Part shown: positions 6,601 to 64,000 of the stretch, piece after piece
Numbering within the stretch: position 1 is the stretch's first letter
Layout of the letters: each line of letters begins with the position of its first letter
Origin: Octopus sinensis
Taxonomy: Eukaryota
Assembly: GCF_006345805.1 (NCBI RefSeq)
Contig: NC_042998.1
Location: forward strand, 99,138,001 to 99,202,000
Length of the DNA: 64,000 bases
Reading direction: 5' to 3'
Translations under genes and position numbers: made by a program
The notes under the pieces: model-generated
Databases searched by the model: none
Seen by the model: only the letters and a program-made list of their open reading frames with translations
What the model was told of the DNA's origin: nothing

Positions 6601-6880
6601 TGTTGGAAACCATTGTAAGCTAATATGTTGAGAGAAAAATTGGAAATAAGATGCATCAGATATAGTGTACAAGAGAGAAGATTGCCAGTAAGGCCATGTG
6701 ATGTGGATGGATGAAGACATCTGCATAAAAAGTGAAGATTGCTAAATAAGGATAGAACCTATAGAAGAGGGAGACCCAGAAAGGCTTGTGAGATGAAGTA
6801 GTGAAGACTAACATCAAGATGTGGAGCCTCGCAGAGGAGATAACAAAGGACCAAGATGATTGGCAATATGCTTGATAAGA
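3660..6880 (+). mobile_element. Old degenerate near-full-length RTE LINE (APE endonuclease + RT)
   Basis: TINVCTIKGRSGEIAEMLEQR..CVQEVR and LLKFCDANDLIICNTNFRKPAS; colinear with the 39.5-42.9 kb copy; many stops. Confidence 0.88.
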
Positions 6881-12179: not shown

Positions 12180-12430
12180 TTTATCTTTTATCTTTTATTT
12201 GTTTCAGTCATTAGACTGAGGCCATGCTGGGGTACCACCTTGAAGAATTTTTAGTCAAATGAATTGACTTTAGTACTTTTTTTTTTTTAAGCCTAGTACT
12301 TATTCTATCGGTTTATGTTGCTGAACTGCTAAGTTACGGGGACATAAATACATCAACACTGGTTGTCAAGCAGTGATGGAGGACAAACACAAACACACAC
12401 ACACATAGATGTGTGTGTGTGTGTGTATGT
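12180..12430 (-). mobile_element. SINE 3' half (family of 27005-27398)
   Basis: Reverse complement of the GGTGC..CAGCATGGCC..CAGTC..TGACTGAAAC tail and GTCCCCGTAACTTAGC body. Confidence 0.8.
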
Positions 12431-13945: not shown

Positions 13946-15273
13946 TTTTTGTATGTGGCAGATGCTCGGGAGCAATAAACACTGAAAATGCGCAGAGACC
14001 AACTTCCGCCACATTCCAGGGAGAAAAACTAGAAGTAGTTGATAGCTTCCGTTACCTAGGTGACCAAGACAGTAGTGGAGGAGGGTGCGCTAAAAGTGTA
14101 GCTGCTAGAATAAGAATAGCTTGGGCAAAGTTCAGAGAGCTCTTACCTCTGCTGGTGACAAAGGGCCTCTCGTTCAGAGTAAAAGGTAGACTGTATGATG
14201 CTTGTGTATGAACAGCCATGCTACATGGCAGTGAAACATGGGCTGTGACTGCTGAGGACATGCGTAAGCTCTCAAGAAATGAAGCCAGTATGATCCGATG
14301 TTATGTGTAATGTCAGTGTGCATACTCGACAGAGTGTTAGTACCTTGAGAGAAAAGTTGGACCTAAGAAACATCAGATGTGGTGTGCAAGAGAGACGTCT
14401 GTGCTGGTATGGTCATGTGACAAGAATGGATGAGGATAGCTGTGTGAAAAAGTGCCACACCCTAGCGGTTGAGGGAACCTGTGGAAGAGGTAGACCCAGG
14501 AAGACCTGGGATGAAGTGGTGAAACACGACCTTCGAACTTTAGGCCTCTCTAAGGAAATGACTAGTGAACGAGACTTTTGGAAATATGCTGTGCTTGAGA
14601 AGACCCAGCAAGCCAAATGAGACCATAACCTCATGGCCTATCCCAGGAGCATAATCAGCCCATTTATGCGTACCTTTTCCTTCTTTGGACACTAAACTGT
14701 GCTTGCGAAGACCTGTTGAGGCAAGTGAAATCAAAATCAAATTTGATGACTGGCATCCGTGCTAGCGGGGTGTAAAGAGCACCATACGAGTGTGATCGTT
14801 GACAGAGCGGCTAACCGGCTTCCATGCCAGTGGCACATAAAAGGCACCATATGAGTGTGATTGTTACCAGCATTGCCTTACTGGCACTAGTTCCCATGCT
14901 AGTAGGGTGCCAAGAGAACCATCTGAGTGTGATCATTGCCAGAGCGGCTAATTGGCTTCCATGCCGGTGGCACATAAAAATCACCATTCAAGCGTGATCG
15001 TTACCAGTGTTGCCTTACTGGCACCTGTGCCAGTGGCATGTGTAAAAAGATTCAAGCAAGGTCATTGCCAGTACCGCCTGACTGGCCCCTGTGCCGGTGG
15101 CACATAAAAAGCACCCACTATACTCTCGGATGGCTGGTGTTAGGAAGGGCATCCAGCTGTAAAAACTCTGCCAGATTAAGATTGGAGCCTGGTGCAGCCA
15201 TCTGGTTCACCAGTCCTCAGTCAAAATTGTCCAACCCATGCTAGCATGGAAAGCGGACGTTAAACGATGATGA
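13946..15273 (+). mobile_element. 5'-truncated young RTE LINE with full 3' UTR
   Basis: VVDSFRYLGD, RGRPRKTW, (GAT)n tail. Confidence 0.92.
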
Positions 15274-15864
15274 TATATATATATACACTTATATATATAT
15301 ATATATATATATATATGACAGGCTTCTTTCAGTTTCTGTCTACGAAATCTACTCACAAGGCTTGGGAAGCAAACTTACCACATAGCCATACCTATGCTTA
15401 TAACCATGAAGTTTAATTGTCCAGTTAAAAGGGATTAATACTACCATCTGATGCCTTGATTTCTCTAGTAGGGACTCTTGCAAATGTTCAGGCCAGGTCT
15501 GTAGTTTGAAAACACCTCTGTTCTGCTAGTCTTGGAATCCCCATAAAGTGTCATGAGCACTGCCTTTCCTCCTGATCAAAAGATAAAAAAAAAGTTCCAT
15601 TGATGATTCTAATTCTTTCTACAATAGACACAAGGCCTGAAACCTTGGTGAAACTACATTATTTTTCTTTCTTTTTTTTTTTTATACTAATAGAACGAAA
15701 GGTAAAGTTGACCTTGGCAGAATTTGAACTCAGAATGTAAAGCCAGAAGTACCACTAAGCATTTTGTCTGGTGGGCAAAAATTGGTTTTGCACCAGGAGT
15801 TCAGGGTGTTAGATAATGACTCGATTATGTAACCCTATGCTTTTCAGAGATGGCAGTTATGGAA

Positions 15865-17553: not shown

Positions 17554-18829
17554 GGTGCAGTAAATAAATTATCGTCTAAATTACACAAAAATGAAAATAA
17601 CACTGACAGCTCATTTTAACATATATATTAATATCTTGAAATACTAAAGAGTAAATTTATTCAATAAAATCGCCATTGGCTTCAATCATAGCCTCTAGAT
17701 GACTTTGGAATCTCCTGCAGCTCTTCTGGACAGTCTCCTTGTTTAAGTTGGTCAATGCTGCCATAATCCTTCCTTTCAATTCACCTTGTTATGTTAGAAG
17801 CAGTTTTGATGGTTTCTCACTCAACTGCACCCCACACATAATAATCAAGGGGGTTACAGTCTGGGGAGTTAAGAGGCTAGATGTTAGAGGTGATGTGGTT
17901 GCAGAAATAGTCTGACAGTCATGACTGGGTTCTCCTGCTTGTGTGACATATTGCGGAGTCCTGTTGCTAGATATAGGGTCTTCCGGAGGCCGCCTTCTTT
18001 ACCCAAGGCAGCACCACCTCCTCCAGGCACTTGATGCAGGCTTCCATGTTGAGTCTGAGGCTGTGTGGAAAGATGAATGGAGGCATAACGTTGCCATCAC
18101 TAGTGATCACTCCAAACACCATGATGTTGACTGGATGTTTGACTTTTATCACTCTTAGTACATGTTTCAGGGACAAGACAAGCCAACAGTTGTTCTGTGA
18201 GTTCGCCATCTGATCCTGGCTGAAATTTTCTCAGAAAAACTAAAGCATGTTTGGTTGGAGGGGATGCTTGAATTTGTTAAAAAACTTTTCATAGCATGAT
18301 CTTTCCTTTTGTCATTGATAGTTTGGGATAAAAATTGATGCGTTCTCATCTTGTATGAGGAACACGAAATGTCTTCATGTGGTACCTGCCTGATAAGAAA
18401 CTCAGACACTCCCATATCCCTGGCAATGGACCTGATTGAGTTGGAGGGATCGTTGTCAATCATGGCCTGGATCTTACCAACAAATTCAGGAGTTCTTTTC
18501 TTATCAGAATGATCAGAGTGAGTTTTCTGAGCTTCTGTATCTTTGTAATCACCATTAGACTCATCCAACTCTTTCCAAATCCTCTGCACTGTCCTCAGAT
18601 TGACATTCAAACACTCTGAAATGTTCATATTGGAGCTTCTGGTGCGAATGCCAAACAGTACAGCATATTGTTTCCAAATTTCTGGCAGAGTGAATTGTGT
18701 CATGGTGCTGTTTTTCTCATAGACAGTGCCCAACTGACCCTACTATACTGTGTAGTCAACAAAATCAAAAACAAATAGTGCAGATGTGCAAAATTGAAAA
18801 TATAAAATGGTGACAATTTACCCATCACA

Positions 18830-18875: not shown

Positions 18876-19249
18876 GTTTATATATATATGTGTATGTGTT
18901 TATATGTATGTATATATTTGTTGTGTCATTGTATCTTGACAATTATTGTTGGCGTGTTTACATATCTGTAACTTAGTGGTTTGGCAAGTGAGACCAATAC
19001 AATAAGTACCAGGCTTAAAAAGAAATAAGTACTGTGGTCAATTCATTTGATTAAAACTTTTTAAGGTGGTGCCCCTGCATGGCCACAGGCAAATGACTGA
19101 AGCAAATAAAAGGTAAAAGATATATGGTGGAAGTTGACATGTGTCTGAATACATCCACTTCTTGATATGCTGTAAATTTTAGAAGCCCACAAACAGAGGG
19201 ATGACCACAACCATGACTAGTTCCAGAATTAGACAAACTTTGTTTAAAT

Positions 19250-21715: not shown

Positions 21716-21932
21716 GCGGCGAGCTGGCAGAAACGTTAGCACGCCGGGTGAAATGCTTAGTGGTATTTCGTCTGCCGTTACGTTCTGAGTTCAAATTCCA
21801 CCAAGGTCGACTTTGCCTTTCATCCTTTCAGGGTCAATAAATTAAGTACCAGTTACACACTGGGGTCAATGTAATCGACTTAATCCCTTTGTCTGTCCTT
21901 GTTTGTCCCCTTGTGGGCAATAAAGAAATAAG
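21716..21932 (+). mobile_element. tRNA-derived SINE with Nin/Deu-like central domain (other copies at about 31132, 31482, 54122, 54490, 63570)
   Basis: GAGCTGGCAGAAACGTTAG..GAGTTCAAATTCC..GCCTTTCATCCTTTCAGGGTCAATAAATTAAGTACC. Confidence 0.85.
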
Positions 21933-24055: not shown

Positions 24056-24242
24056 CACAAGTGTGACAGAGTGGTAAAAAGTTTGCCTTCCAGTCACATG
24101 GTTCTGGGTCCAGACCCACTGAGCAGTACCTTGCGTAAGTGTCTTCTACTGTAGCCCCAGATTGACCAAAGCTTTGTGAATGGATTTCATAGTAGGAAAC
24201 TGAAAGAAGTTTGTCATACAAACACACACACACATGTATATA

Positions 24243-26031
24243 CAGTAGGGGCCAAAATTAGTGAATGGAAATAAAATTTAAAGATATTCAAATTTTACTT
24301 CCTTTTCACGAATGGGATTTTATTGCATATACTTTAAAGTATGTTCATTATTTGCAATGAATTTTGTAGGAAGTGTTTAATAACTAAATGATTTATAATA
24401 GAGAAACTGTTTATTTGAAAAATACAAGATGGACAAAATTAGAAAACATCTGGTCTAAAATTCAAAGAGTAAAATCTGGCAACACTCTGACCAATGTAAA
24501 CTAAGTTGAACTAATAATGCAAAAATTTATATTGAAAAGTAGTGAATTAACAACTATGGAAAGCCAATGTAAAGTTGATGAAAGCCTCAGGAAGCAAGTA
24601 GTCACAATGAAAAAAGAAGGAATGGCAATTTCTGCTATCATTAGAGACATTAACAGATCAAAGGTTGTTCTTTCAAGAATACTGAAGCTTCATGAAGAAA
24701 CAAGTTCATTTACTATGTTAGACAAAACGAGGGAGACCACGGAACACAAGTGTTCAGCAAAGCTGTGTGATTCAGAGGCTGTTGTTAAGAGACCATTTCA
24801 ATACCACTGCAGGAATTTTTTGCTAAGTAAATCGTGATTATGGAATGAATGTGTCTCAGAAGACTGTGGCTTGTCATTTGAAGGAAGTCAGACTTCAAGC
24901 CCATTACCTTGCCACTAAACTGTTCATCAGTATGAAGAGCCAAAAAGTGAGGTTAGTCTTTGCCAATGAGCCTATACTTTGGATGGATGACAACTGGTTG
25001 TGCATGTTCTTCAGTGTTGAAAGTAAGTTCAATTTAGTTGTCTCTGATGGTAGCCAATACTTGAGACATCATAAAAGTGAAAGATTGCTCCCTAAATGCA
25101 TGAAGAAATCGGTGGAGGTTTAACCCTTTAGTGTTCAGATTACTCTGTTAAATGTAATACTTTTTCACTCAAATTGTTTTTAATTAATCATGTATTATCT
25201 TACAGTTTTCAGGTTTCAATGATGTGATTGTTTATTTTTAAAGTGTCAATGTAAGTTAAGTGTGAGAGGCTAGATATAGCCCATTTGAATATAAGACATG
25301 TAGAATATTTAGGCCGGTTTAAACACTAAAGGTTTAATGGTATAGGGAATGATTTCTGCAGCAGGTGTTAGGCTTTTGATCCAGATCCATGGTAATGTGA
25401 ATGCAGTCATATACAAAAACATTGTTCTGCAGCATGTTGTGTCAGCTCTGGGGTCATCTCCAACTCATCAGCCCATCTTTATGCAAGATAATGCACCATG
25501 TCACAATGCTAAAATAGTTAAGAGAGTGTTTGAAACTGAAAACCTTACTGTGATGCATTGGTCAGCTCAGAGCCTGGCCTTAATCCCATTGAAAACTTGT
25601 GAAAGATACTTGGTGATAAGATCAGAGAGCACTGACCTGTGGGTGTTACAATTTAGTGGGAAAAACTTCAGGAAGGATGAAATAAAATTATGTCAGAACA
25701 ATGTAAGAAATTGGGCAAATCCTGTTGACAGAGATGTGCTGAAGTCATTAAAAATAAAGGATTGTACACATCTTATCAATTTATTGTGGACTGTAAAAAT
25801 TTGTGGCAAAATTTTGATTTCTTGAATTTTATGTCATACATTCTGTCCATCTTGTATTTTTAAAATAAACATTTTTTATATTATTTAGTTATTGATCATT
25901 TCCTACAAAATTTATAGTAAATAAGGAACATATTTTAAAATATATTCAGTAAAAATCCCATTCAGAAAAATGAAGTAGAAATGTAAATATTTTTACTTTT
26001 TATTTATGTTCTCTAATTTTGACCACTAATG
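24243..26031 (+). mobile_element. Tc1-type transposon with long TIRs, decayed, interrupted by a piggyBac-type MITE at 25120-25337
   Basis: TA|CAGTAGGGGCCAAAATTAG ... CTAATTTTGACCACTAATG|TA; FFSVESKFNL, FMQDNAPCH and WSAQS motifs. Confidence 0.9.
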
Positions 26032-27004
26032 TATACACACACGTGTGTGTGTGTGCATACATTATTGTCTCATTGCCTTGACATTTAATGATAGGTATAA
26101 ACAAGGCAAGTAGTATTTCTAGTATCCCATGAAAGTATGCCTGGCCATGGGGAAATATTACCTTATTTGGAAACAGGTATAGATTAGTGACAGGAAGGGC
26201 ATCCAGCCATAGAAAATCTACCTCAATAAATTTCATCTGACTCATGCAAGCATGGAAAAGTAGACATTAAATGATGACTATTGGTATAATTGCATTAAGT
26301 TAGATGAGAGGAGGGGGGTAAAGATATAGAGGTTCCAGTAAGCCTGTAAAAGTTGTTCATAGTCAATGGATTGAGACGTTTTCTGAAAAGGTTAGTGACA
26401 ATACCATGATCTTAACCTGAGTCATCCAATTTGTTATAAGCCACATTGTTTAAACATGTATATAAGTTCTGAAAATAGCCCATTATAAGACTACTCATTA
26501 CTGCTGATATCTCAAATGTAGCTACAAATAAAACTTGTAAATATTCAGGCCTGGGTAGAAAGTTGAGGAATTCAGCTGAGATACATTGCCTTTGTGTTTT
26601 AAATGATTTGAATAATTTATAATAATCATTATAATAAAAATTGTTGAGTTGATTCACTAAGCTGAGATTTAATGAAATATATTACTAAAAAATACTTGTT
26701 AAGTCTGAAAAGGTTATGGTCTTTAATTTGGCTGGTTAATGTAATTAAGTAAAATATCTGCTGGGAAAAATTTCTTGTTTCAAACACTATGTTTTTTAAT
26801 AAGGTTATTAAATAATTTTAGGTATAGCAAGCAACAGACAGCAAACTCTTTTTCAATTATTATTGATAAATATATGCATTCAACAAAGGAGAACTTAGTT
26901 CATTGGATCAACAGCTATTTTTTGTGGTCAGTGAGGAATTTCTAGAATTTTTTGCTTGCTGTACATAAAATCTTCAACAATATTTTCAACTGTCATAGAC
27001 ATGC

Positions 27005-31049: not shown

Positions 31050-32653
31050 GTAAAATATCTCATAGTGTTTTCTTTTTTCCTTCTTTTATCCAAAGGTTGA
31101 TTTTACTTTTTAACCTTTTGTGGTTGATTAAGGCAGTGAGCTGGCAGAATGGTTAGCATGCCAGGTGAAAAGCTTTGCAGCATTTCGTCCATCTTTACAT
31201 TCTGTGTTCAAATTCTGCCAGAGTCAACTTTGTCTTTTATTCTTTCAGGTTCAATAAAATAAGTACCATTTGATCACTGGAGTCAGTTTAATCTTCCAAA
31301 GCTGCTGGCCTTGTGCCAAAATTTGAAATCTTCTGTGGTTAATGAAATTAAGTCCTAATCATTTGCACTTATTGTTATTGTTCAACTCCAGACTAGCTCT
31401 AGTCAGACAGAATTGTGATTTGAAGCATTTTTGGACTCACTACTAACTTGACTGCACATTTTTTAAGACAGCTGGTTTAAAGGCGGCAAGCTGGCAGAAA
31501 CATTAGCATGCCGGGCGAAATGCCTAGCGGTATTTTGTCTGCCTTTATGTTCTGAGTTCAAATTCCGCTGAGGTCGACTTTGCCTTTCATTCTTTCAGGG
31601 TCGATAAATTAAGTACCAGTTATGCACTGGGGTCAATGTAATTTACTTAATCTCTTTGTCTGTCCGTAATTGTCCCCTCCATGTTTAGCCCCTTGTGGGC
31701 AATAAAGAAATAAGCAGGTTTATTAGAGTGAGATTTAGCTGCTATTTCTAGCATGTCAATCGAATATGTAAAGGCTCTTCACTAGGTGTTTATCCTCCCT
31801 TGCAGACCGTAGGTCTTGTGTTTTATATAAAGAGTTAGTAAATAATGTAGGAGACATCTAGAAAGAAATTAGTTACCTTACAACTGAATAGGAGGGGAGG
31901 TTAAAAATTACTAAAAAGTTATATCACTGCTTTTATGTATGAACAAACTAATAAATTTTTTATGAATTTGTTTCCAAGAGAAGGAATTTGCACAGCAGTT
32001 AACATGGGTTACTAATAAATATTTAAATAGTGGCTATTAATTTTGAGCTAAAAATGAACTAGAATTTTTCTTTACTTTTGTACTTTTTTTTTTCTGTTTC
32101 TAACTCAAAATCACAACAGAATGAGGAAGTTTGGTCTATTTAATTTGATCAACTTCTATATAATACTGAAAGGCAATTGTGTGCCAGCGATTAGAGCTGT
32201 GAGAAGACCTGTGGGTCACATCATTGCTGGCATTGCACTGTTTCTGTGGCAAAGATTAGTTCTCAATAAATGTCTCCAACTCCAAACATTGAGTGGTACA
32301 TTAGTATTGGTGCTTAACTTAAATTCCATGTGCTGAACATAGAGATTAATTTCTCCTTAGCTAGAATGCCACTTAGATAGGATGTGTCTATACCAAACAT
32401 GAATGTGAAATTATGTTCACAGAATTAAGTGCCTTGTATATAGATAATATCTAAAGAACTTGAAGGTTCCTGTAGGTTGATTTACACTAGGTATACTACA
32501 CGAAGTTTGCAGTGGTGCTCCAGTGATCTATCTATAACATATAATGTTTCTTATTTTTAAAGATGTTGAACTTAGCAGATATTAAAACCTAAAATATCTA
32601 TTCTATATTTTCTTTATTAAAAAGCATCATCTTTTTTATTTTCTTTCTTTCAG

Positions 32654-33074: not shown

Positions 33075-33575
33075 ATGATGCTGAACTGAAAAGTTCATAG
33101 ACTGACCAGAATACTCTCATGGAATGTGACCAAATGCAATTTGTTTTTCAACATACTCCCCTTTATGAACCTCACACTTTTTTTATCAGTGTTGCATTGC
33201 TTAAGTCTCATTGAAGAAGCTTTCATCCTGTTGATCAAAAAACTCCAGCCAAGTGTTTTTGCCTGTTGGGGAACATAATAGTCATATGGGACCAAATAGG
33301 GAGAATATGGATGGTGATCAACCAGTTCAAAATTATAGTCACGTGTAGCAGCCATTGAAGCCAAGCGCTTGCATGCTGGAATATTATCCTGATGAAACAC
33401 GAACCCTTTCATCAGTTTTCCTGAGCATTTGGTCTTGATAGTCTTTGAAAGTGCTTCAGAAAATTGGCATAATACTCTCCACTGATGGTGTGATGCTTTT
33501 GAAAATAGTCAATAAGCACAATGCCTTTTGTTGAAAAAAAAACTGAGGCCACCACCTTCCCTGCATATGAAATTA
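33075..33575 (-). mobile_element. mariner transposase 3' fragment
   Basis: AGKVVASVF..GIVLIDY, FHQDN, HHPYSPYLVPYDYY (YSPDLAPSD-like). Confidence 0.85.
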
Positions 33576-36619: not shown

Positions 36620-37229
36620 AGGCAAGCCAAGTGAGACCATAACCTTGTGGCCTATGCCAGGGGTGTAATCAGCCCATTTATGCGTACTTTTCCTTCATTG
36701 GACACTAAACTCTGCTTGCGAAGACCTGTTGAGGCAAGTGAAATCAAAATCAAAATCAAATTTGATGACTGGCATCCATGCTAGTGGAGCGCTAAGAGCA
36801 CCATCCAAGCGTGATCATTGCCAGAGCAAAAAACTGGCTTCCATGCCGGTGGTACATAAAAAGCACCATTCGAGTGTGATCATTACCTGCATCGCCTTAC
36901 TGGCACTTGTGCTGGTGGCACGTGAAAAAACATTTGAGCAAGGTCATTGCCAGTGCCGCTGAACTGGCTCCTGTGCAGGTGGCACATAAAAAGCACCATT
37001 GGAAGATGGCCGTTGCCAGTACTGCCTGACAGGCCCTCGTGCTGGTGGCACGTAAAAGCACCCACTACACTCTCGGAGTGGTTGGCGTTAGGAAGGGCAT
37101 CCAGCTATAGAAACTCTGTCAGATCAGACTGGAGCCTGGTGCAGCCGTCTGGTTTGCCAGACCTCAGTCAAATCATCCAACCCATGCTAGCATGGAAAGA
37201 GGACATTAAACGATGATGATGATGATGAT
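36620..37229 (+). mobile_element. RTE LINE 3' UTR-only insertion
   Basis: Colinear with 14608-15273; (GAT)n tail. Confidence 0.9.
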
Positions 37230-38699: not shown

Positions 38700-41600
38700 A
38701 GTACAAATGATTCTCAAAATAAAACAAAGTTTTGTTCTGAACATGAAAAAAAGAAAGCACAATAGAAAGATTCCAGGAAATACTGAACCATCTGATCCAA
38801 AAGTAATAAATTTATCATGTGACTTTGTGAAAATGAAGTAAAACTTTTAGAATATGAACTTAAATTTACACCAACTTAGAAAACCTGGCACAATAGATCT
38901 TATAAAAGGTACTGAAGAATTTTGTCTAAAACTTCATCAACTGGAGTTTTTCTAAAAGAAGGATCATGAAGTTCTATCACTTGTGAAAAAGCAAAATGGA
39001 GTTTAAACCTCCAAAGAACAAGAATAAACACTTAGAGGTGTATATAATGTGTCTGAAAAAATCAGTAAACTCAAACATTCCAGAAAATTGTATAAAATCA
39101 AATATTATAAATGAAAAGCATAAAGTATTCAAATGTCTACTGAAAGATTAGCCTATGGTCATTATCTTAATAAAGGGGAAATGATCTTTGAACAACTAAA
39201 TGACCAACATTTCTACAAACAATTAGAAGCTAAAATAAATAAACAATTAAAAACTTGGTGAATTAATGAGCAACTTCAAAAGCAATTTAACCCTTTAGCA
39301 TTCAGATTATTCTGTCAATTGTAATGCTTATTCCTTTACGCTGTTTTGAATTAATCATGCATTATTGTGTAGCTTCAAGATTTTGATGATGTGATTATTT
39401 ATTTTATAATGACATCGTAGGGAAGATGTGTGGTCAAATCTGGTCAGTTTGAACATATACATTCAAGAATTAAGGTGGAGAGGAGGCTCTGCTAGGTTCC
39501 TCACAAGCAAAGAACAAAGATGCAAGATCTTCTGAGCAGGGAACACTGACGGGGTCAGGGGCGTGGTTATACTTCTTGCGGAGAAATGGGTTGATAAGGT
39601 AATCGAGGTAGTCAGAGTCTGTGATAGAATACTTAAGATTAGATTAGTGCTACATTATGGGTTAGCAACCATTATCACGGCATATGCCCCTCAGCTGGGG
39701 CTACCTGATGGACAGAAAGACCAATTTTATGACACCCTCTTGCTGACTAACTTGTCGACGAATGACAGGGACCTTCTCTTTGTGCCTGGTGATTTCAATG
39801 GACATGTTGGACAACTTGCAGGGAACTTCTATGGCATACATGGAGGCTATGGTTTTGGTTCCCACAATGAGGAGGGAACCAGGCTGCTGGAGTTCTGCAA
39901 TGCAAATGATCTTATGGTATGCAATACTAACTTCAGGAAACCTGCCAGTCACCTAGTCACCTACCGATCTGGTAGACACATTAGTCAAATTGACTACATC
40001 CTCACCAGGAAAAATGAAAGATGGCTACTTATAATTGCCAAAACCTTCCCAAGTGAAGAATGTACCCCACAACATAGACTAGTAGTTAGTGACTTCAGGA
40101 TCAGGGCTAAATTGATGCCCAGAAGACAACCAGCATGGAGGAGAAGGGTCTGGAAGCTTAAAGATCCTGAAAATGGACAGAGATTTAGAGACGTATTACT
40201 TGAAGCTTTTGATGAAATAGAGGAGGATATAGCATCACATGACATGGAAGACAACTGGAGGTTTCTACGGGACAACCTGCTGAGGACCACTGACCAGATC
40301 TGTGGATGGTGCAAAGTCCCCTCTCGACCCAAGGTAACGTGGTGCTGGAACAATATTGTTGACAGGGCCATTAGGGAAAAGAAACAGACTTGGAAGGACT
40401 GGAAGAACGGTGGTAGCAGGGAATCATATCTGACTTCCAAAAGGGAAGCTAGGAGGCAAGTTTATTTAACCAATGGGGAAGCAGAGAAGAAAAAGTTTGC
40501 CAATGTTCTGCACCATGAGGACCAAAGACTTGAGGTATTTTGTGCTGCAAGACAGTGTGTGAGAGAGAATTGTGATGTGATAGGAGAGAAATGTGTTTGC
40601 ATGGATAATGGTTCACTTGCATTAAACAAGGCTGGAAAGAGAGAGGTATGGAGACGCTACTATGACAGGTTGTTAAATAAAGAGAATGAATGGGAGAAAG
40701 AGAGACTGCCGAATGCCAACCCAACAGAGGGACCAGCTATCCGAATTGATAGTGCCTTGGTAGATAAAGCAATTAAGGGTATGAAGACAAGGAAAGCCCC
40801 CTGCCCTTCAGGAATCACCGCAAAGATGCTCAAAATATCTGGCAGTATCGGCTATAGCCTAGTCACCTGTATAGTCAATCAGGTAATACATGAAGGTGTC
40901 ATACCCAATGACTGGTGTAGCACCGTAGTCAGCTGCTACAAAGATAAAGGTGATGCATTAGATGCAAATAATTACAGAGGTATCAAGCTGTTGGATCTGG
41001 TAATGAAGGTCATGGAGAGGGTCATAGCCCAACAAATTAGGGAGAGAGTCAGTTTAGATGAGATGCAGCTTGGGTTCGTGCCAGGGAAAAGCACCACTGA
41101 TGCTATATTTCTGGTAAGTCAGCTGCAGGAGAAATACCTAGCCAAAGATAACCCTCTGTACCTGGCTTTCGTTGACATGGAGAAAGCCTTTGACAGGGTC
41201 CCCCGATCCCTTATCTGGTGGTCAATGAGGAAACTAGGAATAGATAAATGGTTAGTGAGAACTGTGCAAGCCACGTACAGGGATGCTGTCAGTAAGTTGA
41301 GGGGAGGGTTGGCAATGATTACAGTGAAGAATTCCAGGTAGAGGTAGGGGTCCACCAAGGTTCAGTCCTCAGCTCTCTCCTATTTATCATAGTCCTACAG
41401 GAAATAACAGAGGAATTCAAGACAGGATGCCCCTGGGAGCTCTTCTATGCTGATGACCTTGCTCTTATTGCTGAGTCACTATCAGAACTAGAGAAGTTTC
41501 AGGTGTGGAAGCAAGGATTAGAATCGAAGGGACTTAGAGTCAACCTAGCTAAAACCAAAGTCTTAATAAGTAGGAGGGTAGACAAACCACAAATCCCTTC

Positions 41601-44600
41601 AGGTAGATGGCCCTGCTCGATCTGTAGAAAAGGCATAGGTAGAAACTCTATAAGACGTACCCAGTGTAAGCTATGGACACATAAGAGGTGCAGCAATATC
41701 AAAGGAAGGCTAACTGGGAAGATAGCTTTTGTATGTGGCAGATGTTCAGGAACAGTAAACACTGAAAATGTGCAGAAAACAACTTCTCTCACATTCCAGG
41801 GATAAAAACTAGAAACAGTTAACAGCTTCCGTTACCTAGGTGACCAAGTCAGTAGCGGGAGTGGATGCTCTGAAAATGGAGCTGCTAAAATAAGAATAGC
41901 CTGGGCAAAGTTCAGAAAGCTCCTACCTCTGCTGGTGACAAAGGGCCTCTCACTCAGAGTAAAAGGTAGACTGTATGATGAATGTGTATGAACAGCCATG
42001 CTACATGGCAGTGAAACATGGGCCATAACTGCTGAGGACATGCGTAAGCTTGCAAGGAATGAAGCCAGTATGCTCCGCTGGCTGTGTAATGTCAGTGAGC
42101 ATACACAACAGAGTGTAAGCACCTTGAGAGAAAAGCTGAACCTTAGAAGCATCAGATGTGGTGTGCAAGAGAGATGACTGCGCTGGTATGGACATGTGGT
42201 GCAAATGGATCAGGGCATCTGTGTGAAAAAGTGTCACACCCAAGCAGTTGAGGGAATCTGTGAAAGAGGTAGACACAGGAAGACCTGGGATGAGGTGGTG
42301 AAGCACGACCTTTGAACATTGGGCCTCACCAAGGCAATGACTAGTAACTGAGACCTTCGGAAATATGCTGTGCTTGAGAAAACCCAGTAAGCCAAGTGAG
42401 ACAATAACCCATGGCCTATGCCAGTGGTGTAACCAGCCTACTTATTCGTTGCTTGTGAAGACCTGTTGAGGCAAGTGAAATCACAATCAAGATCAAATTC
42501 ACTGATGTGGCCAGTGACAGCACCGCCTGACTGGTAGAACGTTAAAAGCACTATCCGAGTGTGATTGTTGCCAGGGCTGCTGACTGGCTCCCATACTGGT
42601 GGCACATAAAAAGCACCATTCGAGTGTGATCATTACCAGTGTCGCCTTACTGGCACTTCTGCTGGTGGCACGTGAAAAACAACATTTGGATGAGGTCGTT
42701 GCCAGTGCTGCTGGACTGGCTCCTGTGCAGGTGACACATAAAGAACACCATGTGAGCGTGGCTGTCGCCAGTACCACCTGACTGGCCCTCGTGCCAGTAG
42801 CATGTAAAAGCACCCACTACACTCTCAGAGTGGTTGGCATTAGGAAGGGTACCCAGCTGTAGAAACTCTGCCAGATCAGATTGGAGCCTGGTGCAGTGAT
42901 CTGGCTCGCCAGTTCTTAGTCAAACTGTCGAACGCATGCCAGCATGGAAAGCAAACGTTAAACAATGATGATGATGATGATGATGACCATTTCAAATGCT
43001 AACAGGTTAACAAAAAAAATGTTGGATTACTGACTAATTTGGAGGTAAAAACAAATAACTTTTATGAACTACCAAAACTTTATAAATCTTAAGAAATTCA
43101 TATCTGTTTAAAGGACTTTAGTACACCATATGTAAAGACTGCCAAAGTGTCTGATGTAAAATTATGCCCAAGTGTCACAAGACAACATCAAGCACTAATC
43201 AATTAATCAATTTACTGGACATAATTTTGAAATTTGGTCCCTAGTTTCATCAGAAATTATATGAACTTCCTAAACCATGTTCTAGAAAGAGTAAATATAG
43301 AGATGATCCTGGTTAGTTTCAACATGAGCAGCTTCTACATAAATAACCCCCATGAATTAGGATTGGGAGCAGTATAATTCTGGATATGGATAGACAAATA
43401 TCCAAACAGAATTCAGGAGAGATTCTGAAAAGAATTTATCCTAGCAGGATTACAATTAGTGCCACAACTTCTATAATAACCAATAATTCCTTCAAATAAA
43501 AGGGACAGCAATGAGCATGAAAGTTACACCCACATTTGCAACACAAGTGATAGGATTTCTTGAAGAAAAATCACTCTATGCCTGATGATCTAGGATTACT
43601 TAATCAGCATTTCCTATTCTATTTAAAACAAAACTGGAAAAGATTCCTGGATGACTGCTTCATATCATGGAACAGAATTAAGGAAGATCTTACATGATTT
43701 CTGAAATTAATGAATTGGTCCAATTCACTATGAAAATGAATGAAAGGGAACTTTCTTTTTGGACATCTTGAAAATTATTGAAAATGTGATTTTTACAGCT
43801 TATTTCTACTGCAAAAACATAGACACACACCAGTCCTTAGATTTTAGATCTTGTCACCCATCATATATTAAAAAGAATATCCCTCTTAATATAGCAATAC
43901 ATATATGTTCCCATTATTATATGCTCTAGTCAATGAGATGACTGGTGGAATTAAAAATATTCCTTTAGTAGCAAAAATACCTGAAAACTTTAGTAAATAA
44001 TACTGTAACCAATGTAAAAGAGATCTCAATCTCTGTTTTATAGAGAACCTCTCACACTGAGGGTAAAGATAAAAACAAAAGCATAAATATTCCATGTCCT
44101 AGTCACCCATAATGCTAGAAACTATAATATCTTACAGCTGGTTAAACAATACCTTCCAATTCTATACCAGTCACAAAACTCAGGAAATAACTGAAGAATC
44201 ACAAATTATTAAGAGCTGAAGACAGCCACCAAATCTTGAAAGACTTGAAATGTGAAATTTACTCCAGAAGAAAAGAAAAGCAAGTAATAAAATGTAAAGA
44301 TCTGTTATGTGGGACATGTGAGTTAATTGAACAGGGCAAAACCAAAAAATTTGAGAATGAGAAGGAACTGAAGGTTAATGCAAATATGAATTGCAAAACC
44401 AAAAATCTCATTTACTACATCACATGCCCACATTGCAATGAGTATTATATTAGCCAAACAGGATCAAAATTTGTAGATTGGGTTACGGTTCATAAACAAG
44501 TCAAAGATTCATCTCTTGAAAATGTTCCATGTGGTGAACATCTAGATATTTGTGCAAGTGGAAAACTCAAAATTTTAATTTTTTTCAAAATAAAGGAAAG

Positions 44601-44670
44601 GAGTGATCAACTATAAAAACCAAAAGAAAAATATTTTATAAGAATTTCAAATCCAAAGTTAAACTGGAAA
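38700..44670 (+). mobile_element. Decayed Penelope-like element (RT + GIY-YIG), split by a MITE/RTE insertion at 39287-43010
   Basis: LVSFNMSSFYINNP, QIKGTAM, WKRFLDDCF; CGTC..CKTKNLIYYITCPHCNEYYISQT (GIY-YIG with upstream CxxC); 5' boundary uncertain. Confidence 0.85.
39460..42986 (+). mobile_element. Young near-full-length RTE LINE (APE, RT, PHD-like finger, 3' UTR), frameshifted
   Basis: 592-aa ORF 39563-41341 (GDFNGHVG, QIDYIL, QHRLV, NYRGIKLL, FVDMEKAFDRVP); YADD at 41446; (GAT)n tail. Confidence 0.96.
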
Positions 44671-51507: not shown

Positions 51508-51616
51508 GGTGATGGAGAGCTAAATGGCGGTGCCCCAGCATGGCCACAGCTCGTGAGCTGAAACTAGATAAAATTTTTTTTTTTAAATATATATATATAT
51601 AGATAGATAGATGATT

Positions 51617-52708: not shown

Positions 52709-53066
52709 TAACCTTTTTGTTACTATATTTCTGTTGAAATGCACAAAGTCCATTTCAATTAATTTTGATATTAATGCAGAAATTAGTAAAAAAAAATCTT
52801 TGCCATTATTAAACTGATGTTTGATACATAAATTAACATGAAATTTTGGTGGAGAGTTTTAATTTTTGATACCAACCTGTCTAGACTACTCCTGAGTCTA
52901 TGATCTCTTTTAAAGAGATCTTAATTAAAATCTTCCATCAAAATTTGATGCTAATTATGTTCCAAACATCAGTTGGATAATGATAAAACTATTTTACTAA
53001 ATTTGTCATTAGTTTCAAAATTAATTAAAACTAAAGTAGTGTAAATATGGTAGCAAAAGGATTAAG
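52709..53066. mobile_element. Palindromic piggyBac-type MITE (related half copy at 63028-63185)
   Basis: TAACCTTTTTGTTAC.. / ..GTAGCAAAAGGATTAA; internal inverted arms. Confidence 0.6.
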
Positions 53067-54343
53067 ATAGAAATTTGTATCATAAAAACGAGAGTGGTGT
53101 CAGGTGGGTTGGTATCAAAAGAGCTAATGGAAGTTACTAAATATAGCCAGGCAGTTTGTTCACTGCTTTATAAATTCTGTTATCTTTCTATTGCCTGATG
53201 TCCAACATAGACTCAAAGTCACAATTTAAGGATGCTGATGACGGGACTAATGTTTATTTAATTGACCTCTAAAGGGGAAAAAGCATAATTCGCCATGCTC
53301 GGATTTAAATGATTTCTCACATCAGCATAACACCACAAATTTGTTGGTGAGGGGTGCAGTCAATTTAATCATCTTCAAAAGGATGAAAGACAAAGTTGAT
53401 TTTGGCAGAATTTGAACTCAGAATATAAGGAACCAGAACAAATACCACAAGTATTTGTTCTGGCTTCTGATATTCTGAGTTCAAGTCCCCCTGAGGTCAA
53501 CTTTGCCTTGATAAAATAAGGTACCAACCAAATAATGGGGGTTAATTTAACTGACTAAATGACTGACCTTTCTCTCTAAATTTCATGCCTTGTGTCTGTG
53601 TTAAAAGCAATTATTATGATTGTGTACAAATCCCACCAAGATCAACTTCGCCTTTCATCTTTTTGGCATCAGTACTATAAAGTACCAGTCTAGTACTGGG
53701 ATTAAATCAACTTATCCTCTCCCACAAATTTCTAGCCTTTCTTAGAAAGGATTATTATTATTGTTTATGTTGACCAAGTTCAAATAATTTTTTTTTTTTA
53801 CTTTTCACAAGGCCACAATTTGTATAAGGGATCAGAATAAGTAATTTGTCATGTTCATGTTTTCTTCAAAAAAGATGAAAAATACCAGTCAAGTTATTCT
53901 CTACTATTATAATTATATGTTTGGCTTTCGCTTTGTATTTGCACAAGTTGACTCCAAGTCTCACCCGGAAACTTGAAGAGACAAGTTAGAAGTTCAGTTT
54001 GGTGTTATGACTAGGGTACCTTTTATTGGAGCTCCTGGAGTCTTGTATGCATAGCGGGCTTGCTACCTGCAGCCTACAGTACCATGCTATCCATTCTTTT
54101 TCATTATTATTATTATTATGAAGGCAGAAAGCTGGCAGAATCATTAGCATGCTGAGCAAAATGCTTAGCAGTATTTCGGCCGTCTTTATGTTCTGAGTTC
54201 AAATTCCACCAAGGATGACTTTCGGGGTCGGTAAATCAAGTACCAGTTGAGTACTGTGGTCAATGTGATTGACTGTCCCCCTCTGCACAAAATCCAGACC
54301 TTGTGTTTATAGTAGAAAGGATTATTGTTATTGTTATTATTAC

Positions 54344-54377
<34 letters not shown>

Positions 54378-54727
54378 TCTCTTTATCACAGGTTTTGTTG
54401 GAGCTCCTGGTGTCTTGCATGCGTAGCGGGCTTGCTACCTGCAACCTATGCTACTCGTTCTTTTCATTATTATTATTATTATCATGAAGGCGGCAAGCTG
54501 GCAGAACTATTAGCATGCTGGGCAAAATGTTTAGTGGTATTTTGCCCATCGCTACATTCTGAGTTCAAATTCCACCAAGCTTGACTTTGCCTTTCATCAT
54601 TTTGGGGTCAATAAATTAAGTACCAATTGTGTACTGGAGTTGACCTAATTGACTGGCCCCCTCCCCGCAAATTTCAGGCTTTGTGCCTATAGTAGAAATT
54701 ATTATTATTATTATTATTATTATTATT

Positions 54728-59515: not shown

Positions 59516-60056
59516 TTTTTTTACATTTTTACTCTTTTTTTACCATTTTACTCTTTTATTACATTTTGCACTTACTATTATCCTGTATAATAATGTTTAG
59601 ATTTATACATATACTTTTTCCTCTTTGTGATCCCAAATTCATTAAAGATTCACCCCCTCCCACTCCTTCCCTCTTTATCTCAACATCCAACCTCCTCATT
59701 CTATATCCAGTGAAAAAACGGTATGGACGTTTTGTTTTGGTGTCTCGCTTTGCCATATACAACTATGAGGATTTGCATTCCCAACGAAGAAACTCATCTC
59801 TTTCCCAAACTTCTTCTCAAACCTGCTATAATGTAATACATGTCTTTAGTGTGGTAATTGTGCATGGCTGAAGAAGGCTATTGACATACATGTTACATCA
59901 ATTATGCATTGATATAAACTGTCCAATAAAGCCATAAACATATGTACCGCTAAATCCATTGCATCCTGTTTTTCTTTTGATAAATATACCCTATCACCTA
60001 CACCACTAACTGGCATATACAGGTGCTTACAGTTATCAAGTATTCACCCTGAATTT

Positions 60057-60109
<53 letters not shown>

Positions 60110-60266
60110 GACAGGCTTCTTTCAGTTTCCGTCTACCAAATCCACTCACAAGGCTTTGGTCAGCCGAGGCTATATTAGAAGACACTTTTGGCCAAGGTGC
60201 CACGCAGTGGGAATGAACCCAGAACCATGTGGTTGGTAAACAAGCTACTTACCACACAGCCACTCC

Positions 60267-60301
<35 letters not shown>

Positions 60302-61819
60302 TCATCTAAGAAACCATAAGTCAGAAATAGTAGACACTCATATATTTGTCAATAGGAGTGGGTATATTAATCAAAGTATGCATTATTAGAGATCTATCAT
60401 AGCTGATCTAACCAATTAGTTTTGCACCTGATATTAGGTGATTGGAGGATCATCTATTTACTGTGTTCAGTGATAGCAGATATAGAATGAATGGCAACTG
60501 CTCTCTGTTGCTGGAGGTGAGGAAGTGCTACATCCGATTTGTGGGTGTTGTGAAAAAGATGAAACAAAGTTGCAGGAGGCAATTAAGAGAGGGATTCATC
60601 AAGTGTTATGTCCCTTAACCCCAAAAATCCAGTTGAGATGCCAGTAAAAGTGCAGTGGGTTGATAAGTTTGTAAGGGCGTATGTGCAGGGTTGGGGGCAA
60701 AACCAAACCTTTAACCTCTTGTGTGGGTGTGTATGAACATGTGTGTTTATGTGTACATGGATTGATCAAAACATTGCTGGGATCAGAAGTTGTGATGGTG
60801 GAAGGACCAATAGTGGAAGTCCTGGCATTTACAATCATGATGGAACTCATAGGTAAGTAATCATGTATCTTCATTCATGTGGGCACAAACAAAAAAATTT
60901 CACTCCTGCAGTTTATGTAGATGTCTCAGTGATGCAACATTTTAACATAATTCTTTTCTTGGTTAGGTATAGCCTACACTTTCTGATTATTTTAATATAA
61001 GGCTTGCACTTCTCCAGGATTCTCCACTTGTTGCTGTAATCTGTTGAACTTTCCTTCAATAACTATATGTGCCTAGCCAGGGCTGTAATGTTGTGTCTCT
61101 CCTAAATATTAAAGGTGGATTTACAGTTGTTAAGTCTGGTCCCCAAAAAGTGCGATAGATTCATTAATAATAATTGGAGTGTAAGCGGGATCAGAAAAAA
61201 AATTGTGAGATCATGGTTTCAATTCCCAGACTAGGCAGTGTGTTGTATTCTTGAGCAAAGCACTTCATCTCACATTGCTCTGAGACCTTTTCAATATCTG
61301 GCATGTGATACACCATGCACCTGCATAGGCAATGTCAATTTGATTGAGAGAATGAGTTAATGTCCAGCAAAAACATGATCATTATAAATAAATCACCTGT
61401 GCAGGTTGTTTGGCTAGAAATTGCTGAATCCTCATCTGTCAGTTACAGCAAGAGATGTCACTACAAGCAATGTAAGTGAAACTTTTTTAACTGTACTGAG
61501 AATTGTTGTATATCCAAAATTTACAGGAGTAAAATTCCTGCATACTCAGTATTTACATTGTTGCATACTCAAAATTTTAGTGGGGAAATGCCTTGGATTT
61601 AAGAAAGGGAATTATGTGTGATGGTTGTAACTTTCTCAAGAATATCAGGAAGGAAAAATAGCTACAACTGACAAATGCAAAACAAAACAGGAAAAATTCA
61701 CGGTTCAGAGGCTTGGATCAGTACATGAGTAAATGAAAACGTTTTTCAATATATCTTAATAATAAATGTTTGAAAAGAACTTATCACAGCTGATAATAAG
61801 CTTGTGTGGCTTTCATGAT

Positions 61820-62820
61820 CTCTTTAATCTTTAAATTGTTTCAGCTTTGAAGCTGCAGTCATGCTGGGGCACCACCACTGACTGTGCTACACCAGTATTT
61901 GAAACTTCCTCTGATATGTGGCATTTGGTGAATGAGGGAATTTGATGATGCTGCCTTCATCCATGTTTTCTGCCATGAGGTAGGCTCATCTGGAAACCTT
62001 GACCGGAGAAAATCCAGTTTTGTTTTGAAGACACCTACATCCAACCCATGCAAGTCTCTCAGGCATTATGGAAGGATATTGAAGAGCTGTGGACCTTTGA
62101 AACACAAGCTGTTGCAGTATCACGTCCTGCAGATGGAGATGCTGGGATCATTGACAGTATGCTGTGGTGCCCTATTCTGCTGTGTATGTAACTTTCAATG
62201 CCAAAGTTTGATACAAGGCCTTTCAGGATTTTCCAGATGCATATCATTGCATATCTTTCCTGCTTTCATTCTAGAGAGAAGAGTTTTAATTCTTTCAGTC
62301 TTTCCCAGTAGTTGATATGTTGCATTAAGGCAATTTTCTTTGTGTAGCTTCATTAGATTGCTTCAAGTTCCACTGTTAATTTTATATTGTGTGGTGACCA
62401 TAGTTGGGACCAGTAGTCCAAGTGGCTGAGGAAGTATGTCCTCCAAAGGACCATCATTGTTTCCTTTTCTCTTGTTTTGAAAGTTCAGAGGATCCATCCA
62501 ACTAGCCATCTGCATTTTATTACCAAATTGGTAATATGCACTTGTAAAGATGCATCATTGCTCATGTCAATGCCCAGGTCACACACTGATCTTGATTCAG
62601 GGATTACAATTCCTCCTGGGCCAGTGTATACTGTCTGCATGTTATTCAGCTTTGTGTACTGGTAGTACAAGGCTTGGAATTTTCCTGCATTAAACTGCAT
62701 GTTGTTGTCCTCAGCCCACCTGTATATTGCATCCAACTCCCATTGCAGAGGTGCAATATTTCCTGGATTTTGTATTATCTGAGAGCCTTTTGTGTCATCT
62801 CCATAGCTAGCAAGGGTGAG
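61820..62820 (-). mobile_element. 5'-truncated CR1/L2-group LINE with intact 3' tail
   Basis: LASYGDDTK, WAEDNNMQFNAGKF, DLGIDMS, LDYWSQLWSP, FKTKLDFLRSRFPDEP. Confidence 0.88.
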
Positions 62821-62926
62821 AAAATATGAAATGCTTCATGAATTTGCCTGTCATCCTCGTACAGGGGCAATGCTAATCTTCTTTGCATCATTCCAATTTT
62901 AGAATATGTACTGCCATAGCTAGCAT
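62821..62926 (-). pseudogene. U6: Full-length U6 snRNA retrocopy
   Basis: Minus strand ATGCTAGCTATGGCAGTACATATTCTAAAATTGGAATGATGCAAAGAAGATTAGCATTGCCCCTGTACGAGGATGACAGGCAAATTCATGAAGCATTTCATATTTT is colinear with U6; ACAGAGA box mutated. Confidence 0.93.
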
Positions 62927-64000
62927 GGCATATTAGGTAAAACAAACTAAAAAAACTTAACATGTAGATGTAATTTTTCTTTCTCCATGAAAACATCAAA
63001 ATCTAGCTTACAGACATAGCTATATTATTAACCCTTTTGGTAACATTCCACCTGTATGTTAATTTATGCTCCATACACCAGCTAAATAATGACATAGTTA
63101 TTTTTCTAAGTTCTTAATTCTCTTCAAAATTCATTGAAACAAAGACAGGGTAATTTTAACAGAAACATAGTAATAAAGAGGTTAAATGTTAACTTGCATG
63201 AGGATTTTGTTTAAGAGTTCTGATAAGAGAAGTCTTTTAATGGGGTGGTTTATGGAAATGTTGAATGGTTATTGAAGTATCTCGAAAGCTTTTAATCCAT
63301 GGGACATATATGAAATCAAAAATGGTTGTTATGTTGTGAAAATGAAAAAGATATGATATCAAACCCAAATGAAGTTAAATTAATGGATTAGAATTTCAAT
63401 TATTTTGTGTGTTGATATAGATCCAACTGATGGTGATGAGTGAAATGATCAATGGAATTAATAATCATCATATTGAAAAGCTAGAAGTCTAACAAAGTTC
63501 TGTTTCCAAAACTAGTGCTGAATGTTATTAGAAATATTGGCATTATTAGGCAACAAATAAGTCACAAACTGGCAGAATCATTTGCATGCCAGACAAAATT
63601 CTATTTTGTCTATCTTTACGTTCTAAGTTCAAATTCCACCAAGTTGACTTTGCCTTTCATCCTTTTGGGGTGATTCAATTTCTTGTGCTTATAGCATAAA
63701 AGAGTAGAAAAGATAGTAGGCAGTGATTAAAATTCTAAAACTATATAAAGCAATGCTTTTTTTATGTTTTCTTAACATTTTTGTGTCAGAAGACTCTTCT
63801 CTTATTCTTTCGTAAACACATCATTCTCTTCTCTTCACAACAACATTCAACAGCTACTGCAGTGCACCAACTCCAGATATATTTGTAAACCAAACATCTA
63901 CAATGGTGACCAAACTGATGTACAAAAAAATTTATGCTGGTAACCTGAATGGAAGAGCACGTTGTAATTTCTGCCTTCAACAAGTTAGACTACACCACCT

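What the first reader, a model, noticed from the sequence alone, without database searches (positions are those of the whole stretch)
61820..62926. U6 snRNA-LINE chimeric retrocopy made by a CR1/L2-group element
A full 106-nt U6 copy ending in TTTT is joined directly, on the same strand, to a LINE truncated about five codons before the RT Y(G)DD motif. This is the signature of template switching or RNA ligation described mainly for vertebrate U6/L1 chimeras. An invertebrate CR1/L2-type example appears unusual to me, but I cannot verify novelty. No clear TSD is visible.
Basis: partly seen in the sequence, partly recalled or inferred. Interest (0 to 1): 0.7.

Follow-up and report, generated by a model that had tools for sequence, protein, structure and literature searches.

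The report
Dead U6–LINE fusion copy, likely octopus
A decayed copy of the U6 splicing RNA is joined directly to the tail end of a LINE retrotransposon, likely in one insertion event in a likely octopus genome; such fusions are already known from vertebrates, so this likely extends a known process to molluscs.

Summary
The structure is real. On the minus strand a U6 match (62926-62820, 84.2 bits) ends in TTTT at 62821. It abuts about 1 kb of a 5'-truncated, decayed APE-RT LINE that starts five codons before Y(G)DD and ends in a 3' tail shared with local SINEs. No LINE homology lies upstream of U6, there is no TATA near -30, and no target-site duplication brackets the whole element.

The nominal U6 nt 1-12 look like a second copy of the LINE's first bases; chance from a true U6 5' end gave this in 1-10 of 40,000 simulations. 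So 'full-length U6' is doubtful.

Best reading (0.6): one retrotransposition event captured U6 at its 3' end, and the 5' joint was patched with about 14 LINE-templated bases. Main rivals: the same event with an intact U6 (0.16), or a later U6 insertion with a 14-15-bp duplication (0.12).

U6 chimeras with non-L1 LINEs are published for platypus and Anolis, and one unconfirmed CR1 case for turkey. I found no invertebrate case in a limited library. New member of a known kind; one dead copy.

The parts
62821..62914 (-). U6 snRNA copy, about nt 13-106, ending in TTTT; a pseudogene (two changes in the ACAGAGA box)
   Evidence: Rfam RF00026 84.2 bits. 8 of 52 upper-case consensus columns of the core differ, 4 of them at CpG (counted by eye from the alignment; intervals).
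62914..62928 (-). Upstream copy of a 15-nt direct repeat; covers 2 flank bases and nominal U6 nt 1-13; likely a second copy of the LINE's 5' end
   Evidence: 14 of 15 identical to 62815-62801; score reached by 0 of 3993 random zones and 0 of 179 LINE-body zones; 1-10 of 40,000 simulations per setting from an inferred true U6 5' end.
62816..62820 (-). Five bases between the U6 TTTT and the downstream repeat copy; the last two begin the Thr codon found in 5 of 7 aligned relatives
   Evidence: Sequence; alignment of relatives; tblastn start at 62817.
62801..62815 (-). Downstream copy of the 15-nt repeat, inside LINE codons T-L-A-S-Y-G; also the site in the retained LINE that best resembles the inferred U6 5' end
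   Evidence: family D14; 9 of 12 matches at 62813, best of 988 positions, next best 7.
61905..62820 (-). 5'-truncated, decayed ORF2 of an APE-RT LINE, from just before Y(G)DD to the C-terminus; 4 stops in the first 233 codons, one frameshift near 62130-62140, 2 stops in the second frame
   Evidence: Profile hits E 1e-93 and 2e-23. Relatives carry endonuclease plus RT. Only named relative: Argonauta hians protein P0165, 49% to this copy.
61820..61876 (-). LINE 3' terminus: about 57 nt shared with the tails of short repeats elsewhere in the window, ending in a short A-rich repeated tail
   Evidence: blastn to 12239-12184 (77%, E 1e-5), 51525-51572 and 19065-19123; five-way alignment, 66% mean column identity.
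63028..63185 (.). Context, not part of the chimera: short TTAA-flanked element with terminal inverted repeats (likely a piggyBac-type MITE) ending about 100 nt upstream of U6
   Evidence: 74% over 133 nt to 52709-52839; TTAA ends read from the sequence; the piggyBac label is recalled, not from a call.

Best explanation
This is a dead U6-LINE fusion that was likely made in a single insertion by a likely CR1-group LINE, with about 14 LINE-derived bases likely patched in where the U6 5' end should be. SHOWN: U6 nt 13-106 ending in four T, joined on the same strand to a 5'-truncated LINE with an intact 3' end; a 15-nt repeat bracketing U6; decay of both parts; no LINE sequence further upstream. 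INFERRED, step 1: the LINE reverse transcriptase primed at the LINE 3' tail and copied about 1 kb of RNA. Step 2: it continued onto the 3' end of U6, either by template switch or because U6 had been ligated to a cut LINE RNA (RtcB route); these cannot be separated here. Step 3 (least certain): during 5' joining, the upstream chromosomal end annealed near the end of the LINE cDNA and was extended by about 14 nt. It then re-annealed on the U6 cDNA, where the U6 5' end happens to resemble these LINE codons. The result is flank / 14 nt LINE / U6 from nt 13 / LINE. A second jump of the RT back to LINE RNA would give the same product. The copy then decayed and has no apparent function.
For: Precise junction at the mature U6 3' end, same orientation, as in known chimeras that end in about 4-8 T (PMC6789731 passages). 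Intact LINE 3' end shared with SINE-like tails, as expected for a stringent LINE that must prime on its own tail (PMC4476161 section 10). No upstream LINE sequence: no profile hit in 62927-64000; a back-translated model scores at background, 409 of 700 null windows as high. Similar decay: non-CpG about 8.5% (4 of 47; 2-20%) for U6 and about 5% (2-10%) for the LINE, from 12 of 75 invariant columns changed. The repeat is unlikely by chance. L2-clade insertions often carry 5' extra nucleotides copied from flanking sequence, and CR1/L2 TSDs are only 3-5 bp (PMC4245944 passages). Almost all platypus U6-L2 chimeras have a 5'-truncated U6, with 1-9-bp TSDs in 72.5% of 40. Tripartite double-jump chimeras exist (PMC2104539, first of 5 parts).
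Against: No TSD ties the two parts into one event. A 14-15-bp repeat around U6 is also the typical TSD length of L1-clade insertions (13-15 bp), and L1 and Tx1 families are abundant in Octopus vulgaris. The junction lying within 7 nt of the best U6-like site of 988 is a roughly 1% coincidence that step 3 uses but does not explain. In a blind scan the repeat is one of 29 direct-repeat families in 1.8 kb; its weight comes from its position, which was noticed before testing. The true host U6 5' end was inferred from stem pairing and the Rfam UUCG loop, not observed. The age intervals are wide and would not detect a moderate age gap. No family DNA consensus, second copy or empty site was available.
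Confidence: 0.6

Rival explanations
1. Single-event chimera with a truly full-length U6; the 15-nt repeat is a chance product of decay or of later local conversion between two similar stretches 113 nt apart.
For: The Rfam model aligns from position 1. The inferred U6 5' end already matches the LINE site at 9 of 12 positions. Full-length U6 is the rule in U6/L1 chimeras (PMC11838501 sections 4 and 29). It needs no extra step.
Against: Decay of a true U6 5' end gave an equal repeat in 9, 10, 7, 6, 4 and 1 of 40,000 runs across six settings. The bases at positions 10 and 11 that break the UUCG loop equal the LINE bases, as do two flank bases.
Confidence: 0.16
2. Two events: a 5'-truncated CR1-group fragment inserted first; later a U6 retrocopy, mobilised in trans by an L1/Tx1- or RTE-type LINE, landed in its 5' tip, and the 15-nt repeat is its target-site duplication.
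For: The repeat brackets U6 exactly and has the length of an L1-clade TSD (13-15 bp; RTE 10-12 bp). It explains the replaced U6 5' end as microhomology joining. Both copies carry the G that turns YADD into YGDD and the Ala where 5 of 7 relatives have Thr.
Against: The nick must fall within about 5 nt of an existing 5' truncation point, in the same orientation. No LINE sequence remains upstream. The U6 is neither polyadenylated nor 3'-truncated, unlike the stand-alone retrocopy classes read in PMC4476161. The five bases after TTTT would have to be untemplated yet complete a conserved Thr codon. The shared G is also the normal U6 G13.
Confidence: 0.12
3. A former genuine U6 gene, with a LINE whose 5'-truncated end later landed exactly at the Pol III terminator.
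For: No TSD links the parts. Some LINEs target snRNA genes, such as Keno in U2 genes (PMC4494074 passage). The octopod PSE is unknown to me, so a decayed promoter cannot be excluded.
Against: The only TATA-like word in 300 nt upstream is at -98; the -30 zone is a T7 run. A MITE occupies -102 to -259. Both parts are decayed to a similar degree. The snRNA-targeting LINEs in the passage read are Tx1 clade. The 15-nt repeat is unexplained.
Confidence: 0.06
4. One member of an amplified U6-headed non-autonomous family, or of a recurrent junction hot spot, carried by the CR1-group machinery.
For: The 3' recognition tail is intact. The junction sits beside the most U6-like site of the retained LINE. 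The O. vulgaris annotation lists one 'U' SINE family (369,490 bp) and one 'U-L1' family (52,753 bp) without saying which snRNA (PMC13282606 Table 1 and supplement).
Against: Only one U6 copy in 64 kb. snRNA genes rely on upstream promoter elements, and the T run at the junction would stop Pol III (established knowledge). No preferred L1 site was seen for human U6/L1 junctions.
Confidence: 0.06

Closest known systems
U6-L2 and U6-Mon-1 chimeras of platypus; U6-L2/RTE/L1 chimeras of Anolis; U6-CR1-like copy of turkey (Doucet et al. 2015, PMC4476161; abstract and sections 6, 8, 10, 14 read)
   Same: U6 3' end joined in sense to the 3' part of a stringent, non-L1 LINE; U6 usually 5'-truncated; TSD short or absent.
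   Different: Host is likely an octopod; the LINE part is about 1 kb rather than short; the copy is far older than that survey's young copies; a 15-nt LINE-derived repeat brackets the U6.
Mammalian U6/L1 chimeric pseudogenes (Moldovan et al. 2019, PMC6789731, passages; Law and Burns, PMC11838501, abstract and sections 4, 29)
   Same: U6 ending in a short T run directly joined to a variably 5'-truncated LINE in the same orientation.
   Different: Not L1 (E about 1e-23 to solved L1 ORF2p, against E = 0 to its own relatives); no poly(A); no 6-19-bp TSD around the element; U6 5' end likely replaced.
Tripartite chimeric retroelements (Gogvadze et al. 2007, PMC2104539, first of 5 parts read) and 5' extra nucleotides of ZfL2 insertions (PMC4245944 and PMC2666801, passages)
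   Same: An extra 5' piece added during the same insertion; in ZfL2 the extra bases often come from adjacent sequence.
   Different: Here the third piece is only about 14 nt and copies the element's own LINE 5' end; there is no TSD to prove one event.
SINEU, crocodilian SINEs with U1/U2 heads (Kojima 2015, PMC4494074, passages)
   Same: snRNA-derived 5' part on a retroposed element.
   Different: SINEU are multi-copy families with fixed structure, U1/U2 heads and likely Tx1 partners; here one copy, U6, and a coding LINE 3' kb.

Membership tests
U6 / stringent-LINE chimeric retrocopy (platypus, Anolis type) | U6 3' end intact and directly joined to a LINE | tested here: met
   TTTT at 62824-62821; LINE frame from 62820, homology from 62817.
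U6 / stringent-LINE chimeric retrocopy (platypus, Anolis type) | Same transcriptional orientation | tested here: met
   Both on the minus strand.
U6 / stringent-LINE chimeric retrocopy (platypus, Anolis type) | LINE part 5'-truncated with intact 3' end | tested here: met
   No upstream LINE; tail shared with SINE-like repeats.
U6 / stringent-LINE chimeric retrocopy (platypus, Anolis type) | Short TSD (1-9 bp) around the whole element, present in about 72% of known cases | tested here: inconclusive
   Only 4-nt shared words, reached by 1500 of 1500 random zones; such a TSD would be unrecognisable at this decay.
U6 / stringent-LINE chimeric retrocopy (platypus, Anolis type) | Both parts arrived together (empty orthologous site) | not testable with these tools
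   No eukaryotic genome collection; decay levels overlap but with wide intervals.
Mammalian U6/L1 chimeric pseudogene | Partner is L1 with poly(A) tail and 6-19-bp TSD | tested here: not met
   Distant from L1 ORF2p; short repeated tail; no TSD. Works like one; not a member.
Mammalian U6/L1 chimeric pseudogene | Full-length U6 | tested here: inconclusive
   Model aligns from position 1, but nt 1-12 duplicate the LINE 5' end.
CR1-group LINE (CR1, Zenon, L2, Crack, Daphne, Rex1) | ORF2 with APE endonuclease followed by RT | tested here: met
   Met in the three full-length relatives P0003-P0005; the window copy has lost that part.
CR1-group LINE (CR1, Zenon, L2, Crack, Daphne, Rex1) | No RNase H and no C-terminal CCHC knuckle (criterion recalled, not from a call) | tested here: met
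   No such Pfam hit in 5 of 5 relatives; C-termini read by eye.
CR1-group LINE (CR1, Zenon, L2, Crack, Daphne, Rex1) | 3' end shared with partner SINEs, stem-loop plus short repeats | tested here: inconclusive
   Sharing is clear. A hairpin is predicted in all three related tails folded, z -2.0, -2.3 and 0.0, and z -0.95 in this copy.
CR1-group LINE (CR1, Zenon, L2, Crack, Daphne, Rex1) | RT groups with named CR1-group references in a tree | not testable with these tools
   No named CR1, Zenon or L2 references among 276 relatives fetched or in the PDB hits.
Functional U6 gene | Intact ACAGAGA box | tested here: not met
   Two substitutions.
Functional U6 gene | TATA box near -30 | tested here: not met
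   Only TATA-like word in -300..-1 is at -98.
Functional U6 gene | PSE near -60 | not testable with these tools
   No mollusc PSE found in the library (0 papers; listing only, none on molluscs by title).
snRNA-headed SINE (SINEU-like) | Many copies with a fixed junction | not testable with these tools
   One copy in the window; no genome to search.

The most novel reading that the evidence does not exclude
In octopods, a CR1-group LINE captures U6 at a homology-defined hot spot: the codons just before YADD mimic the U6 5' end, which tethers U6 to the nascent cDNA and repeatedly yields LINE-U6-LINE copies with one shared junction, possibly the source of the unexplained U-headed repeat families annotated in Octopus vulgaris. 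This would be a sequence-guided route to U6 capture, unlike the site-independent ligation described for human L1.
Probability: 0.1. Interest if true: 0.65.

Novelty: new member of a known kind. Interest (0 to 1): 0.33.

Why it matters
If it is a single event, U6 capture by LINEs reaches beyond vertebrates to molluscs and to a likely CR1-group enzyme. That would suggest it depends on conserved properties of U6 (its 3' end) rather than on L1. It also gives a cheap test of ligation against template switching outside mammals: look for U6-LINE junction reads in octopus RNA that have no genomic copy. The duplicated 14-15 nt is a small, readable trace of how a 5' joint is finished. By itself it is one dead copy with no sign of function.

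Tried and rejected
1. U6 inserted into a longer pre-existing LINE. A 9-residue stretch just upstream of U6 resembled the relatives' residues before the junction (rank 11 of 127,942), but that window was chosen after I saw it. A 16-residue version ranked 3149 of 127,900, the profile HMM found nothing there, and back-translated DNA models scored at background: 409 of 700 and 111 of 700 null windows as high. Rejected.

2. TSD around the whole element: none above chance.

3. Other copies of this LINE body or of U6 in the window: none. A 32-nt match between U6 and a SINE at 21838 has E 0.26 and is treated as chance.

4. The upstream repeat as a host element spanning the insertion: it ends about 100 nt before U6, so it gives no empty site.

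5. DNA of the LINE family: one scan of genome contigs gave 1 weak locus from 30 candidate stretches (33%, E 3e-5), which was of no use. The metagenome and viral collections stayed unchecked, and accession look-up for the relatives could not be made, so their organisms are unknown apart from P0165.

6. Pfam found no family in the window's own fragment, as expected for a piece that starts near the end of the RT domain. Folding the U6 copy gave no signal (z 0.36). ARAGORN found no tRNA. The relaxed Rfam scan of 60000-64000 added only microsatellite noise.

7. Promoter motif from the literature: not found.

Full report
1. WHAT IS THERE. Rfam finds one RNA at gathering level in the window: U6 at 62926-62820, minus strand, 84.2 bits, model positions 1-105. 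The copy ends in TTTT at 62821, 106 nt from 62926. The next base opens the frame L-T-L-A-S-Y-G-D-D. Its translation matches LINE ORF2 proteins at up to 64% identity, continues through one frameshift near 62130-62140 to the C-terminus at about 61905, and carries 4 stops in the first 233 codons. The last 57 nt (61876-61820) are shared with the tails of four other repeats in the window, so the LINE's 3' end is intact.

2. HOST AND LINE TYPE. The host is inferred, not given. The only named relative among 276 proteins fetched is from Argonauta hians, an octopod (P0165; 65% to the best relative P0003 over the region searched, 49% to this copy). The window is AT-rich, with microsatellites, SINE-like repeats and a long second LINE at 39.5-43 kb that I read as RTE-type from recall; this fits published octopus repeat content (PMC8967140 passages; PMC13282606 first two of three parts and supplement). 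Three full-length relatives have endonuclease plus RT and no RNase H hit, and are distant from L1 and R2. With the SINE-shared tail, which parallels CR1- and L2-type tails in bivalve SINEs (PMC4824008 and PMC4758252 passages), this fits the CR1 group. Absence of a C-terminal zinc knuckle as a marker is recalled. CR1, Zenon or L2 could not be resolved; the tail is a short A-rich repeat rather than the poly(A) given for Zenon (bioRxiv 10.64898/2026.01.13.699120 passages).

3. NOT A WORKING GENE, PROBABLY NOT A FORMER ONE. The ACAGAGA box has two changes, and 8 of 52 upper-case core columns differ, 4 at CpG (counted by eye). The only TATA-like word in 300 nt upstream is at -98, and a T7 run sits near -30. 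A TTAA-flanked element fills -102 to -259. I found no mollusc PSE to test. Decay is similar in both parts: U6 4 of about 47 non-CpG columns (8.5%, interval 2-20%); LINE 12 of 75 invariant residues changed, about 5% non-CpG at DNA level (2-10%). The intervals are wide, so this is compatible with one age but does not prove it.

4. 62928-62914 and 62815-62801 are identical at 14 of 15 bases and bracket U6 nt 14-106; the shared 12-mer occurs at only these two places on either strand. None of 3993 random zones or 179 LINE-body zones scored as high. That null is too easy, because a real U6 5' end already resembles these LINE codons. I therefore inferred the U6 5' arm from its 3' arm and the Rfam UUCG loop, decayed it, and scored it against the LINE start: 9, 10, 7, 6, 4 and 1 of 40,000 runs reached the observed score. 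The inferred 5' end matches the retained LINE best at 62813 (9 of 12; best of 988 positions, next 7), 7 nt from the junction; position 3 was set to the observed G in that count. Further LINE sequence upstream was tested and rejected (the one suggestive result was post hoc). No TSD brackets the whole element.

5. MECHANISM. Best (0.6): one insertion. The RT primed on the LINE tail, copied about 1 kb, and continued onto the U6 3' end by template switch or on a ligated RNA. At 5' joining about 14 nt were copied from the LINE cDNA end before the strand settled on the similar U6 5' end. The first two steps follow known chimeras. The third is my inference, by analogy with the 5' extra nucleotides of L2-clade insertions, which are frequent (about 40-50% of genomic ZfL2-2 copies) and often copied from adjacent sequence. 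Rivals: same event with intact U6 (0.16); later U6 insertion whose 14-15-bp TSD is the repeat (0.12; the length fits L1-clade TSDs, but the nick must hit within about 5 nt of an old truncation point); old U6 gene plus LINE (0.06); amplified family or hot spot (0.06). These weights are my judgement, not computed posteriors.

6. COMPARISON AND NOVELTY. It works like the U6/L1 chimeras but is not one (other LINE, no poly(A), no long TSD). It fits the U6 chimeras with stringent LINEs in platypus and Anolis, where U6 in platypus is nearly always 5'-truncated and TSDs are 1-9 bp; a CR1-like case in turkey was left unconfirmed. That survey covered 48 genomes, and those named in the sections read are vertebrates. 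Five searches bearing on an invertebrate U6-LINE chimera listed none by title or abstract start. The library lacks most subscription papers and Repbase, the term 'U6' alone could not be searched, and I did not read the supplements of PMC4476161 or any bioRxiv supplement, so absence from print is not shown. The O. vulgaris annotation lists 'U' (19 recent insertions, 13,954 bp; 369,490 bp in all) and 'U-L1' (2 recent; 52,753 bp in all) SINE classes without detail, so snRNA-headed repeats in octopus may already sit in a public library. PMC7245038 (passages) added nothing on U6.

7. VERDICT. Real, most likely a single-event U6 / CR1-group chimera in a likely octopod, with a small unusual 5' joint. 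New member of a known kind. Interest 0.33; 0.65 if a genome-wide search shows a recurrent junction at this site (probability about 0.1).

Noticed in passing
window 12184-12420, 18935-19128, 51525-51572, 11820-11860: SINE-like repeats and short tails that end in the same 3' 50-57 nt as this LINE, so this LINE family or a close relative is their likely partner.
   Followed up: partly
window 39536-42983, with fragments at 3806-6872, 13947-15285 and 36622-37229: A long second LINE (endonuclease plus RT, 601-aa and 169-aa open stretches, a PHD-like Pfam hit after the RT); less CpG-depleted than the U6-linked LINE (o/e 0.24 against 0.05). RTE-type by recall.
   Followed up: partly
window 63028-63185 and 52709-53128: TTAA-flanked short element with terminal inverted repeats; the relative at 52.7-53.1 kb has long inverted arms and may be nested.
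   Followed up: partly
window 1579-1920 (minus strand): Very decayed RT fragment ending in YADDT, a different and older LINE.
   Followed up: no
window 21716-21932, 31130-31714, 54021-54727, 63565-63680, 9981-10151: Abundant short repeat family with at least eight copies; ARAGORN sees no tRNA.
   Followed up: no
window 18167-18739, 24216-26058, 33095-33508, 44191-44616: Open stretches that look by eye like Tc1/mariner transposase pieces and a GIY-YIG (Penelope-like) fragment; labels recalled, not tested.
   Followed up: no
L001 3001-3294: A bacterial MAG contig holds a weak match (33%, E 3e-5) to the region between endonuclease and RT of the LINE relative; chance or contamination.
   Followed up: no
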